NCBI RefSeq assembly: GCF_054482525.1
Contig: NZ_CM137006.1
Strand: one strand, 5' to 3'
DNA: 64,000 nt
The first letter of the stretch is position 1, and every line of letters starts with the position of its first letter. Below are positions 51,001-54,000 of the stretch, piece after piece. Made by a program: the position numbers.

Positions 51001-54000
51001 ACGCAAATGGGTGCGCAGGTATCTCACGGGCAACTGGAAACCATCCTCAATTACATTGATATCGGCAAAAAAGAGGGCGCAGACGTGCTCACCGGCGGGC
51101 GGCGCAAGCTGCTGGAAGGCGAACTGAAAGACGGCTACTACCTTGAACCGACTATTTTGTTTGGTCAGAACAATATGCGGGTGTTCCAGGAGGAGATATT
51201 TGGCCCGGTGCTGGCGGTGACCACCTTCAAAACGATGGAAGAAGCGCTGGAGCTGGCGAACGATACGCAATATGGCCTGGGCGCGGGCGTCTGGAGCCGC
51301 AACGGTAATCTGGCCTATAAGATGGGGCGCGGCATTCAGGCTGGGCGCGTGTGGACCAACTGTTATCACGCTTACCCGGCACATGCGGCGTTTGGCGGCT
51401 ACAAACAGTCGGGCATCGGACGCGAAACCCATAAGATGATGCTTGAGCATTACCAGCAAACCAAGTGCCTGCTGGTGAGCTACTCGGATAAACCGTTGGG
51501 GCTGTTCTGATGTGAAAGGCAGGCAACGTTAATAGTTGTCTGCCTTTGTTTTAGTTGTATAAAGCGGCAGTCGCTTTTAACTCATCGCTGAAAGAATAAA
51601 TATCATCGAGAGATTCAATAGGATGGCGGGTTTCGTTTTTCTCTAAGTCAAATAAACCAATATATTTTTGATTTCGATTGAAATGTAATCTACAGAGTGG
51701 TTTTCGATTATTGTCATCTACAAGTATACCAAAATAGCTTTTTGTATCTCTGTGGACTATTCGTGGTGCATCAAGCACTACGCGGACTATAGCTTTAACA
51801 ATATGAAATCCTTCAAGTTCCTCCATAGTAGTGGCAATATCGGTTTCTTCTTTATTAATACATTCTACTTCCTCATTGTGTGAATTCGAATCAATTACAG
51901 ATAATGACCCACCACCTATTGCCGATTTCAATCTTTCGTTTATTTGAGAGCCAATATATTGATTGGCAGCTTTCTTTGTTAATTTTGCAAACGTATCTTT
52001 TACCTTTTGTGTTAACATACCTTCATAAATTCTTGCTGCAAAGAATTTTACAAAATCCTCTTCAGGATTATTCATTTGTGCATGGAGAACTTTTTTAATT
52101 AAACTAACATATTTTAATTCACCTGCAGCATTAATTATTGATTCCAAATCAAATGCTGATTTAGTAAGCTTTTTTATCTCGGGAACAACTGTTTCGTCTA
52201 AGTCAAGTAGATCTATCTCAAGAAATGGTTTTTCATCCATTTTATTAGGTGCTTCTAAATCAGTAAAAAATTTATAAACTTGTCCATTGGTTAGAATAGA
52301 TATTCTTGCATTTGTTACATGAAAGTATCGAAAAAGCTGTGAAGCATGATTTATATTTAGAGGATCACCAATTTTTTTGCATTCAATGAGAATCTGAACC
52401 TCGCTATTTTTTAAGATTGCATAGTCAATCTTTTCACCTTTCTTCGTTCCAATATCGCATACAAACTCTGGGATAACTTCGGTAGGATCAAAGACATCAT
52501 AACCTAACACATTGTTAATGAACGGCATTACGAAAGCATTTTTGGTAGCTTCCTCCGTTTCAATGACTCCGGCTTGTTGTTTTATTTTTGCGGATAATGA
52601 ATTCAGCTTATCTATAAACTCCATAGACATTATAACTCCTTTTATATATATTTAATAAAAATGCGTTTGATAAAAATATAGAAAATATTTATATATTAAC
52701 GCCTTATCATTGGTCATAGTTAATGTATAACACACAAAAAATAATGTTTGCACATTGTAAATACAATGGTGAAACAAACTTGATATTTATCAAGAAAATA
52801 AAACAATGTCTTTTATTGGTTGTTTTAAACGTCCAATGAATACGAGTTGGAGCTATAGCAAGACTAGCTTCGATATCGCATGGATAATCTAATACAGATT
52901 TTTTAACACCTAATACTATGAGTTATATGTAAATTGCGAGCATCCTCGCATCTTTTCAACAAGTTACTGCACACCGTTATTCTCCTTCCGAGCGAGTCAA
53001 CTTTATCCCCCTGACGGCCCATATAAATCGCGCTATCGTGATTGTTATCGCTAATTGTGTGTGTATCGTGTGTATAATCATGGAAGGGCAGGGATGTGAA
53101 AAGTGCAGACGTGATCGCTATCCTGAAGCAGCATGGCTGGGAACATATTCGAACCCGTGGCAGTCATCATCAGTTCCGCCACCCTGTTCATCCGGGTCTG
53201 GTGACGGTTCCGCACCCTAAAAAAGATATTAAGCCCGGTACGCTGGCGCAAATTGGGCGTCAGGCTGGTTTAACATTTTAAAATTTCAGGAGGCAATATG
53301 TTTTATCCCGCCTATATCCACAGTGATCCTGACGGCAGCGCCAGCGGTTTTTTCCCTGATGTTCCAGGCTGTTATTTTGCTGGTGATACGCTGGACAACG
53401 CTTTCCAGGATGCGCGAAGTGCACTTGTCGCGCACTTCGAAACCTTATGCGAGATGAATGAAGAGTTGCCGCTTCCAGGCTCTGTGGAAACACATCTGGT
53501 CCAGCGTGCGCAGGACTTTATTGGCGGGCAATGGTTGCTGGTGGATATCAATATGAATCAGTTCGAAGGTCGGGCTGAACGTATCAATATTACGATGCCG
53601 AAAAGATTACTGAACAAGATTGATACCTACGTGCGCAATAACCCAGACTACGCCAACAGAAGTGCGTTTCTGGCGGAAGCTGCCCGGCGTGTATTGCCGG
53701 GCGCTTAATCCCGCGTTTCGATGGTTGGCGGGCAACCGCACCGATATGTTGATACTGATAAGACGCGTTAAGCGTCGCATCATGCGCTGGTTTCCTCATT
53801 CACCCAGATCCGCATTTCGCCTTCACCCCGGTTAGCCCAGCTAAACCACGGGATAAATGTCAGAGTTTGCGGCTGGCGTTTGGCTGGGGCATAGTCGTAA
53901 TGCCACAGCGGTTGCTGCTCTGGATTGCTCTGTTCATACCGGTAACCCGGTGCCTGGATTAAGATCTTATGGCGGAACAATCCTTTGCCTTCAAATGTCG

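What the first reader, a model, noticed from the sequence alone, without database searches (positions are those of the whole stretch)
51511..53780. AT-rich islet with a stand-alone PD-(D/E)xK nuclease-domain gene next to hicAB: candidate uncharacterised defence module
A block of about 2.2 kb with clearly lower GC than its neighbours sits between the aldB terminator and a sugar-utilisation cassette. It encodes a 359-aa protein whose N-terminus carries a PD-(D/E)xK-type motif (KIDYAIL ... ILIECKK), like the N-terminal nuclease domain of type I restriction R subunits or Mrr. The C-terminal 200 aa or so I cannot assign to any family. No methyltransferase, specificity subunit or helicase partner is present, so this is not a classical restriction-modification system. 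It is flanked by a hicA/hicB toxin-antitoxin pair with its own extended -10 promoter. Solitary nuclease plus toxin-antitoxin in an AT-rich strain-variable islet is the typical context of anti-phage or abortive-infection systems.
Basis: partly seen in the sequence, partly recalled or inferred. Interest (0 to 1): 0.75.

Follow-up and report, generated by a model that had tools for sequence, protein, structure and literature searches.

The report
Stand-alone restriction-like nuclease gene islet
A 1.4-kb AT-rich insert just after aldB in this E. coli strain carries one intact gene for a DNA-cutting enzyme from a very large, experimentally untested family that temperate phages of many phyla carry next to their repressor gene, so it is most likely a single-gene barrier against foreign DNA, while the neighbouring hicAB toxin-antitoxin pair is a separate unit.

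Summary
The gene is real: a 359-aa ORF at 51551-52630 (-). It has an HsdR-type PD-(D/E)xK nuclease domain whose catalytic residues D69, E83 and K85, plus a QxxxY motif, are conserved across the family.

The low-GC block is only 1.42 kb (51511-52929, GC 31.6%). It contains this gene alone. hicAB has GC 51% and lies outside the block.

In 5,426 complete E. coli genomes, 189 carry the nuclease, always beside hicAB. About 316 more have aldB-hicAB without it. Relatives in Citrobacter and Enterobacter sit in the same aldB region without hicAB.

The previously unassigned C-terminus resolves into a helical spacer, a disordered linker and an alpha-beta5-alpha domain. The fold neighbours of that domain (T4 MotA C-terminal domain, YjbR, YktB, YkuJ, DUF1054) overlap those published for McrB-N, the 5-methylcytosine reader of McrBC.

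No partner gene is conserved in 80 genomic loci. In temperate phages the gene usually follows the repressor or ImmA gene and lies near the integrase.

Best reading: a solitary two-module restriction-type defence nuclease, possibly modification-dependent. No experiment on this family was found, and no PADLOC system model matches it. It is not an obligate nuclease-plus-HicAB module, although HicAB recurs nearby in about four lineages.

The parts
51511..52929 (.). Low-GC single-gene islet (1,419 bp, GC 31.6%). It is an indel relative to E. coli genomes that have aldB-hicAB directly.
   Evidence: Composition. Alignment with L002 (NZ_CP069882), where about 105 bp with a REP-like sequence occupy this place.
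51515..51547 (+). Hairpin followed by a T-run between the convergent aldB and nuclease genes. It is a terminator candidate and lies inside the islet.
   Evidence: Terminator scan; sequence.
51551..52630 (-). CDS of the 359-aa solitary nuclease (stop codon included). PGAP calls it 'type I restriction endonuclease' (WP_000061476).
   Evidence: It matches phrog_4225 over its full length at E 1e-129. pN/pS is about 0.15 against orthologues in Citrobacter, Enterobacter and other genera.
52211..52630 (-). Residues 1-140: HsdR-N-type PD-(D/E)xK nuclease domain.
   Evidence: Pfam HSDR_N_2 and HSDR_N. AF2 pLDDT above 90. Foldseek matches to HsdR 3h1t, EcoR124I HsdR and DrdV.
52376..52426 (-). Codons for the catalytic triad D69, E83 and K85. 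The QxxxY motif (Q98, Y102) follows at 52325-52339.
   Evidence: In the 79-sequence alignment A2, D69 and E83 are invariant; K85, Q98 and Y102 are at least 90% conserved.
51917..52195 (-). Residues 146-238: helical spacer domain.
   Evidence: AF2 secondary structure. The Foldseek alignment to DrdV extends over 210 columns.
51842..51907 (-). Residues 242-263: disordered acidic linker.
   Evidence: pLDDT below 50. This region varies in length in A2.
51557..51826 (-). Residues 269-358: alpha-beta5-alpha 'double-wing'/YjbR-like domain, the putative DNA-recognition module. It has no Pfam family.
52631..52929 (-). Very AT-rich (GC 25%) 5' region of the nuclease gene, with RBS AAGGAG at 52636-52641. 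The promoter was not mapped.
   Evidence: This region is not conserved between genera.
53096..53708 (+). hicA (53096-53281) and hicB (53298-53708): a neighbouring type II toxin-antitoxin pair. It is a separate unit and not part of the islet.
   Evidence: Pfam matches. GC 51%. Present without the nuclease in about 316 genomes.

Best explanation
The islet encodes a self-contained restriction-type endonuclease that acts alone as a barrier to phage or other incoming DNA.

An N-terminal HsdR-type PD-(D/E)xK domain (catalytic D69, E83, K85, with a QxxxY motif) cuts DNA. A helical spacer and a flexible linker tether it to a C-terminal alpha-beta5-alpha 'double-wing'-like domain. That domain is proposed to bind DNA and decide what is cut.

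There is no cognate methyltransferase, yet the gene is kept intact. The enzyme must therefore spare host DNA by recognising something the host lacks. The most likely candidate is a base modification or another mark of foreign DNA, which is type IV-like logic.

In temperate phages the same gene sits in the immunity operon. It would then be made in lysogens and exclude superinfecting phages.

Shown here: the domain architecture, conservation of the catalytic residues, purifying selection, solitary status, the presence/absence polymorphism, and placement in phage lysogeny modules.
Inferred: DNA cleavage, DNA binding by the C-terminal domain, the basis of self/non-self discrimination, and the defence phenotype.

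My estimates: active nuclease about 0.85; defence role about 0.6; modification-dependent specifically about 0.3.
For: Nuclease domain:
- Pfam HSDR_N_2 and HSDR_N match.
- D69 and E83 are invariant, and K85, Q98 and Y102 are at least 90% conserved, in 79 diverse homologues.
- The confident AF2 model (pLDDT 91.9) matches HsdR nuclease domains and DrdV.
- A PADLOC type IIG REase profile matches residues 50-181 at E 3.7e-7.

Selection: pN 0.11-0.15 against saturated pS (at least 0.76) between genera.

Solitary status:
- Clustering the neighbours of 80 genomic loci finds no family shared across genera beyond generic aldehyde dehydrogenases, ABC transporters and short-chain dehydrogenases.
- The gene has lower GC than its flanks in 76 of 78 loci, with a median difference of -9.7 points.

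Variable presence: 189 of 5,426 E. coli genomes carry it.

Phage context:
- phrog_4225 matches full length at E 1e-129.
- In 8 of 9 annotated temperate phages from Firmicutes, Actinobacteria, Fusobacteria and Proteobacteria, the gene lies just downstream of, and co-oriented with, the repressor or ImmA gene, and/or next to the integrase.
- At least 523 IMG/VR contigs carry a relative.
- In 31 of 80 loci (9 of 31 dereplicated clusters) a repressor or ImmA ORF lies within 150 bp upstream on the same strand. In 61 of 80 loci (22 of 31 clusters) a lysogeny marker lies within 6 kb.
- In 26 of 54 contigs of at least 20 kb the gene is within 3 kb of a contig end, against 9.7 expected.

C-terminal domain:
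- Sukackaite et al. 2012 (PMC3424535) report these same entries (2a8e, 2ffg, 3mqz printed there as 3mgz, and 2fki) as the neighbours of McrB-N, the 5mC reader of type IV McrBC.
- YjbR-like domains are predicted DNA binders and occur fused to nucleases (PMC7641849).

Other leads:
- JGI names a family fragment 'predicted type IV restriction endonuclease'.
- Toxin genes (RES, Fic) and DUF4041 lie nearby on plasmids.
Against: - No experiment on any family member was found.
- No PADLOC defence-system model matches the protein as a whole.
- The gene keeps the same chromosomal neighbourhood in E. coli, Citrobacter, Enterobacter and a fourth, unidentified enterobacterial genus (P0020 orthologue). It seems common in Enterobacter. 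That is more stable than is typical for defence genes.
- Some contexts are purely metabolic.
- The uniformly lower GC could partly reflect amino-acid composition rather than transfer.
Confidence: 0.55

Rival explanations
1. Trigger-activated (abortive-infection type) nuclease. The C-terminal alpha+beta domain is a sensor for a phage protein or nucleic-acid intermediate and keeps the nuclease off until infection. The enzyme then degrades DNA indiscriminately, host DNA included.
For: - It is a solitary nuclease without a methyltransferase.
- The flexible linker would allow autoinhibition.
- The lysogeny-operon position fits this reading as well.
Against: - The best-characterised structural neighbours are DNA binders (MotA C-terminal domain, YjbR).
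- Conserved polar residues in the domain (D295, D305, R314; the consensus also reads DDNNRK) are compatible with either role.
- No data exist on toxicity.
Confidence: 0.2
2. One reading: the nuclease and HicAB form one functional defence module, for example the toxin-antitoxin pair regulating or backing up the nuclease.
For: - All 189 nuclease-positive E. coli genomes also have hicAB adjacent.
- HicA/HicB lies within 0.3-5 kb of family members in Escherichia sp. ESNIH1, four syntenic Pseudomonas loci, Porphyromonas phages and two clades of viral contigs. It is immediately adjacent in L006, L165 and L169.
- The nucleases of L165 and L169 are 90% identical, yet hicAB is tandem in one and divergent in the other while remaining adjacent.
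Against: - About 316 E. coli genomes have hicAB at this site without the nuclease.
- Citrobacter and Enterobacter have the nuclease here without hicAB.
- No HicA or HicB ORF was detected in 75 of 80 genomic loci (HicA in 77 of 80) or in 75 of 80 viral loci.
- hicAB has backbone GC and is not part of the indel.
- In Pseudomonas, two unrelated methyltransferase genes separate the nuclease from hicBA.
- The HicB proteins of E. coli and Porphyromonas belong to subfamilies that do not detect each other.
- Other toxin types (RES, Fic) take the neighbouring place elsewhere.
Confidence: 0.07
3. A housekeeping or element-maintenance nuclease (DNA repair, recombination, or prophage regulation) rather than a defence gene.
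For: - The chromosomal neighbourhood is conserved across enterobacterial genera and the gene is broadly present in Enterobacter species.
- Synteny is shared among 7-9 Pseudomonas loci.
- Flanking genes are metabolic in several loci.
Against: - It is present in only 3.5% of E. coli genomes.
- In phages it lies in the repressor/integrase operon, not in the recombination or replication modules, which carry their own exonucleases.
- It shows foreign composition almost everywhere.
- No NCBIfam housekeeping family matches.
Confidence: 0.1
4. A decaying remnant of a type I or type IIG restriction gene (an orphan nuclease domain) with no function.
For: PGAP names it 'type I restriction endonuclease'. 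Sequence similarity to known restriction families is limited to the N-terminal third, although the Foldseek alignment to DrdV runs on into the helical domain.
Against: - The full-length 350-370-aa architecture is conserved in thousands of clusters across phyla.
- Purifying selection is strong.
- The C-terminal domain is specific to the family and highly conserved.
- 188 of 189 E. coli copies are full length by coverage.
Confidence: 0.03

Closest known systems
HsdR subunit of type I restriction enzymes (EcoR124I HsdR; V. vulnificus HsdR fragment 3h1t)
   Same: Both have an N-terminal PD-(D/E)xK nuclease domain with D...ExK and a QxxxY motif. Supported by Pfam HSDR_N and HSDR_N_2 and by Foldseek matches.
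   Different: This protein has no SF2 translocase domains and no HsdM-interacting C-terminus. There is no hsdM or hsdS nearby. It is 359 aa, against about 1,000 aa for HsdR. The database name 'type I restriction endonuclease' is misleading.
Type IIL/IIG single-chain enzymes (DrdV, MmeI family)
   Same: The nuclease domain plus the following helical region align with DrdV over 210 columns at probability 0.99. A PADLOC REase_MTase_IIG profile matches at E 3.7e-7.
   Different: There is no methyltransferase domain and no target-recognition domain. An unrelated alpha-beta5-alpha domain takes their place.
Type IV modification-dependent restriction enzymes (McrBC with its McrB-N reader; Mrr; MspJI)
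   Same: Both are nucleases without a cognate methyltransferase, combined with a separate DNA-reading domain. The C-terminal domain shares its structural neighbours (2a8e, 2ffg, 3mqz, 2fki) with McrB-N. McrA on the e14 prophage is a precedent for a prophage-borne type IV enzyme (my own knowledge).
   Different: No sequence similarity to McrB-N or any other solved reader was detected. The domain order and the nuclease type differ from Mrr and MspJI. There is no GTPase motor. Dependence on modification is untested.
T4 MotA C-terminal domain and the MmcQ/YjbR 'double-wing' DNA-binding fold
   Different: Similarity is only at fold level, with 4-13% identity. No Pfam family matches. DNA binding by this domain has not been shown.
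Prophage immunity-operon defence genes (for example lambda rexAB downstream of cI; my own knowledge)
   Same: Same genomic position and orientation: directly after the repressor or ImmA gene and near the integrase, so expression in lysogens is expected.
   Different: The proteins are unrelated. Here the gene also exists as a chromosomal single-gene islet with no prophage around it.

Membership tests
Type I restriction enzyme, HsdR subunit | N-terminal PD-(D/E)xK nuclease domain (D...ExK, QxxxY) | tested here: met
   Pfam HSDR_N_2 at 1.8e-7 and HSDR_N at 1.9e-7. D69, E83, K85, Q98 and Y102 are conserved. Foldseek matches 3h1t, 2w00 and 4bec.
Type I restriction enzyme, HsdR subunit | SF2 helicase/translocase motor domains | tested here: not met
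   No ResIII or Helicase_C hit. The protein is 359 aa, and the structure has no RecA-like domains.
Type I restriction enzyme, HsdR subunit | Adjacent hsdM and hsdS genes | tested here: not met
   None within +/-9 kb. None recurs in 80 related loci.
Type IIG/IIL restriction-modification enzyme (MmeI/DrdV) | Fused N6-adenine methyltransferase and target-recognition domains | tested here: not met
   Only the nuclease and helical part align. There is no methyltransferase domain in Pfam.
Type IV (modification-dependent) restriction endonuclease | Nuclease with no cognate methyltransferase | tested here: met
Type IV (modification-dependent) restriction endonuclease | Domain that reads modified bases | tested here: inconclusive
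Type IV (modification-dependent) restriction endonuclease | Cleaves only modified DNA | not testable with these tools
   This needs biochemistry or phage and plasmid challenge experiments.
COG4748 ('predicted type IV restriction endonuclease') | Match to the COG profile | not tested
   No COG library is available here. The only link is the JGI name of fragment P0348. COG4748 is listed among restriction endonucleases in PMC8649781.
PHROG phrog_4225 ('endonuclease') | Full-length profile match | tested here: met
   E 9.6e-130; residues 3-356 match profile positions 2-352 of 357.
Known anti-phage systems in PADLOC-DB v2.0 | Significant match to a system protein model over the whole protein | tested here: not met
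   Only the N-terminal type IIG hit and a non-significant PDC-S26 hit at E 0.046.
HicAB type II toxin-antitoxin (the neighbouring genes) | HicA toxin and HicB antitoxin domains, toxin gene first, closely spaced | tested here: met
   Pfam matches at 2.1e-23 and 9.1e-36. The gap is 16 bp.
   hicAB occurs without the nuclease in about 316 E. coli genomes. The nuclease occurs without hicAB in Citrobacter, Enterobacter and most loci.

The most novel reading that the evidence does not exclude
The family is a very widespread, uncharacterised class of single-polypeptide restriction enzyme. It has more than 5,000 clusters at 50% identity, hits in at least 523 viral contigs, and members in at least six phyla. 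In it an HsdR-type nuclease is steered by a new double-wing (McrB-N/YjbR-like) DNA reader. Temperate phages carry the gene in their immunity operon as a general superinfection-exclusion device.
Probability: 0.3. Interest if true: 0.65.

Novelty: new variant of a known kind. Interest (0 to 1): 0.45.

Why it matters
If the prediction holds, one 1.1-kb gene would explain part of the strain-to-strain differences in phage and plasmid susceptibility. This would apply in E. coli (3.5% of genomes), Enterobacter, Pseudomonas, Actinobacteria and many lysogens.

It would also add a new DNA-recognition domain to the restriction-enzyme toolbox.

Finally, it would correct a misleading database name ('type I restriction endonuclease') carried by thousands of entries. 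Its position after the repressor gene in many unrelated temperate phages makes it a simple, testable candidate for prophage-mediated exclusion.

Tried and rejected
- NCBIfam gave no meaningful hit for any of the three proteins.
- PDB sequence searches found nothing, whether with the single protein, the full-length profile or the C-terminal profile.
- Pfam found nothing on the C-terminal domain.
- Rfam gave only a chance-level hit, TeloSII_ncR30 at E 0.07.
- Literature searches returned only gene lists or unrelated HsdR_N-HsdM fusions. The search terms were the WP accessions, the PHROG id, 'Prophage Lp2 protein 6', PF13588/PF04313 and 'HsdR N-terminal domain-containing'.
- The profile search with the C-terminal domain returned mostly fragments of the same family, so no alternative architectures emerged. 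The AFDB search did likewise.
- Neighbour clustering found no partner gene.
- The 41-aa ORF upstream of the gene (52652-52777, -) and the upstream DNA are not conserved in Citrobacter, Enterobacter or other genera. I therefore rejected a small hidden partner gene.
- No target-site duplication or mobility gene flanks the islet.
- I considered a matched-control test of HicA enrichment in lysogeny modules but dropped it as underpowered.
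Full report
**What is there**

The window is E. coli. Positions 51400-53900 are 100% identical to strain PCN033. Gene order there is selA-selB-yiaY-aldB, then the nuclease gene on the minus strand, hicA-hicB on the plus strand, and a GH127 glycosidase, an MFS transporter, an AraC regulator and the sgb/araD genes.

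The ORF at 51551-52630 (-) encodes 359 aa. It has a strong RBS: AAGGAG, 5 nt, then ATG.

The low-GC block is narrower than reported. 51511-52929 has GC 31.6% and the CDS 33%. hicA and hicB have 51.6% and 50.9%, and aldB 54.9%.

I aligned the region with a genome that has aldB-hicAB but no nuclease (L002). Homology stops 2 nt after the aldB stop codon and resumes at about 52930. The 1,419 bp replace about 105 bp that contain a REP-like sequence. There is no target duplication and no mobility gene.

**Distribution in E. coli**

Of 5,426 complete genomes, 189 carry the nuclease gene. It is always chromosomal, 181 copies are at least 99% identical, and 188 are full length by coverage. All 189 have hicAB beside it.

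hicAB at this site is present in 505 genomes, so about 316 have it without the nuclease. Most other strains have yiaWVUT here, plus a 49-bp remnant of the hicB 3' end.

The nuclease is therefore an indel nested in the hicAB haplotype. The two are not one islet.

**The protein**

Pfam places HSDR_N_2 and HSDR_N on residues 26-129. PADLOC matches only a type IIG REase profile on residues 50-181, and no defence-system model. NCBIfam finds nothing. phrog_4225 ('endonuclease') matches end to end at E 1e-129.

The family is very large. It has 5,263 representatives at 50% identity with E of 1e-3 or better, and 1,209 with E of 1e-30 or better. Nearly all are 340-390 aa and align over the full length.

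In a 79-sequence alignment, K30, E55, D69, E83, L99, G116 and E271 are invariant. K85, Q98, R101, Y102, D295, D305 and R314 are at least 90% conserved. D69, E83 and K85 together with Q98xxxY102 are the catalytic signature of HsdR-type nucleases. The QxxxY assignment rests on my own knowledge of EcoR124I.

The AlphaFold2 model has pLDDT 91.9. It shows a nuclease domain (residues 1-140), a helical domain (146-238), a disordered linker (242-263) and an alpha-beta5-alpha domain (269-358). Foldseek aligns the N-terminal part with HsdR fragments and with the type IIL enzyme DrdV.

**The C-terminal domain**

Modelled alone it has pLDDT 93.7. It has no Pfam family and no sequence match to any PDB chain.

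Sukackaite et al. 2012 list 2a8e, 2ffg, 3mqz (printed there as 3mgz) and 2fki as the closest neighbours of McrB-N. McrB-N is the 5-methylcytosine-reading domain of the type IV enzyme McrBC (PMC3424535). Bell et al. 2020 describe MmcQ/YjbR as a predicted DNA binder found fused to nucleases (PMC7641849).

This places the domain in a fold neighbourhood that includes DNA readers, but it does not prove DNA binding. In AFDB the domain occurs essentially only in this family.

**Genomic context elsewhere**

I clustered the neighbours of 80 loci from different species. No partner gene is shared across genera. Only generic aldehyde dehydrogenases, ABC transporters and short-chain dehydrogenases recur.

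The gene has lower GC than its flanks in 76 of 78 loci, with a median difference of -9.7 points. One example is a 48-52% islet in a 61-66% Pseudomonas background.

In Enterobacteriaceae it stays in the same region with changing immediate neighbours:
- C. freundii: aldB-[gene]-yiaWVUT.
- Enterobacter: aldB-yiaU-yiaT-[gene].
- Another genus: sgbE-[gene]-yiaY.

Between these genera the protein is 77-85% identical, with pN 0.09-0.15 and saturated synonymous sites (pS at least 0.76). For aldB, pS is about 0.6 and identity 94-96%. The protein is under strong purifying selection, and its alleles are older or faster-evolving than the flanking core gene.

On plasmids it lies near RES and Fic toxins and a DUF4041 protein. 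On one megaplasmid it lies among metabolic genes.

**Phage context**

Nineteen GenBank phage records encode a full-length relative. I inspected nine. In eight, the gene lies directly after, and co-oriented with, the repressor or the ImmA-type metalloprotease, and/or next to the integrase. These are:
- Streptococcus Javan316
- Corynebacterium Juicebox
- Klebsiella KpF5
- Fusobacterium FNU_1P (cI-gene-integrase)
- Enterococcus EG-TP1
- Lacticaseibacillus P7.1 (inferred from gene layout only, because the record has no annotation)
- Acetoanaerobium ANDSL2_ph1
- Clostridium CWou-2020a

. The ninth, Porphyromonas phage019b, has it right after hicA-hicB.

IMG/VR holds at least 523 contigs with a relative. 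I searched 80 fetched loci, which form 31 clusters at 80% identity, with home-made, low-sensitivity HMMs:
- 31 loci (9 clusters) have a repressor or ImmA ORF within 150 bp upstream on the same strand.
- 19 loci (8 clusters) have an integrase within 3 kb downstream.
- 61 loci (22 clusters) have at least one such marker within 6 kb.

In contigs of at least 20 kb the gene is within 3 kb of an end in 26 of 54 cases, against 9.7 expected. In 22 of those the end is downstream of the gene. The gene is therefore a typical cargo of the lysogeny, or immunity, operon.

**HicAB**

The pair is genuine but separable from the nuclease, as shown above.

HicA/HicB does recur near family members:
- Escherichia sp. 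ESNIH1, 5 kb away.
- Four syntenic Pseudomonas loci, 1.3-2.5 kb away, with two unrelated methyltransferase genes in between.
- The Porphyromonas-phage clade: L006, L165 and L180 in tandem, and L169 divergent as in E. coli.
- A second viral clade, L141 and L146.

That makes about four independent lineages, but under 10% of the loci examined. The HicB subfamilies differ between lineages. I read this as co-location of accessory cargo, possibly with some benefit of linkage. It is not a two-part mechanism.

**Interpretation**

The best-supported model is a solitary, two-module, restriction-type nuclease that defends against incoming DNA. Its self/non-self rule is unknown, and a modification-dependent (type IV-like) rule is the leading guess.

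The steps shown and the steps inferred are listed under the best explanation.

Three cautions apply. The literature holds no experiment on this family. One C. jejuni comparison notes such a gene in a phage-resistant strain with 'role unclear' (PMC8713573). The stable position of the gene across enterobacterial genera also argues for care.

The database name 'type I restriction endonuclease' fails two of the three defining features of HsdR.

**Verdict**

The finding is a new variant of a known kind, of moderate interest.

Noticed in passing
window 53625-53673: A 49-bp piece of the hicB 3' end is found just downstream of aldB in about 3,400 E. coli genomes that lack hicAB, including BL21 and K-12-derived strains. 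This suggests that hicAB was ancestral at this site and was later replaced, or that this stretch is a recombination joint.
   Followed up: partly
L165 1-1956; L169 1-2369; L180 3465-7056; L006 3247-5074: In a clade of viral contigs related to Porphyromonas phages, hicA-hicB stays adjacent to the nuclease gene even though its orientation flips: tandem in L165, divergent in L169, with nucleases 90% identical. This is unexplained linkage.
   Followed up: partly
L003 1503-2798 (E. coli MEC2025-PR); corresponds to the yiaY-aldB intergenic region, window about 49772-49971: A Fic-family gene is inserted between yiaY and aldB in a strain that also has the nuclease and hicAB. It marks a second variable spot a few kb away.
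   Followed up: no
window about 42400-44263 (from L001 1-1864): In the PCN033 record, an RHS element core protein is annotated as a pseudogene with an internal stop, upstream of yibF.
   Followed up: no
window 48200-48800: A second low-GC stretch (30-39%) spans the selB-yiaY intergenic region and the start of yiaY.
   Followed up: no
window 52935-52950: A small GC-rich hairpin followed by TCTTTTC lies upstream of hicA. It is conserved in the haplotype without the nuclease (L002 about 5868-5885), so it may be the original aldB-side terminator.
   Followed up: partly
L023 7800-9400 (Pseudomonas kielensis) and 7-9 syntenic Pseudomonas loci: The same gene forms a low-GC single-gene islet (48-52% against 61-66%) between a GGDEF diguanylate cyclase and two small-molecule methyltransferase genes, with hicBA 1.8 kb further on.
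   Followed up: partly
window 51551-52630 (protein residues 63-308): There is a weak PADLOC match to the phage-defence-candidate family PDC-S26 (E 0.046, 245 residues aligned). It may indicate a distant relative of similar architecture.
   Followed up: no
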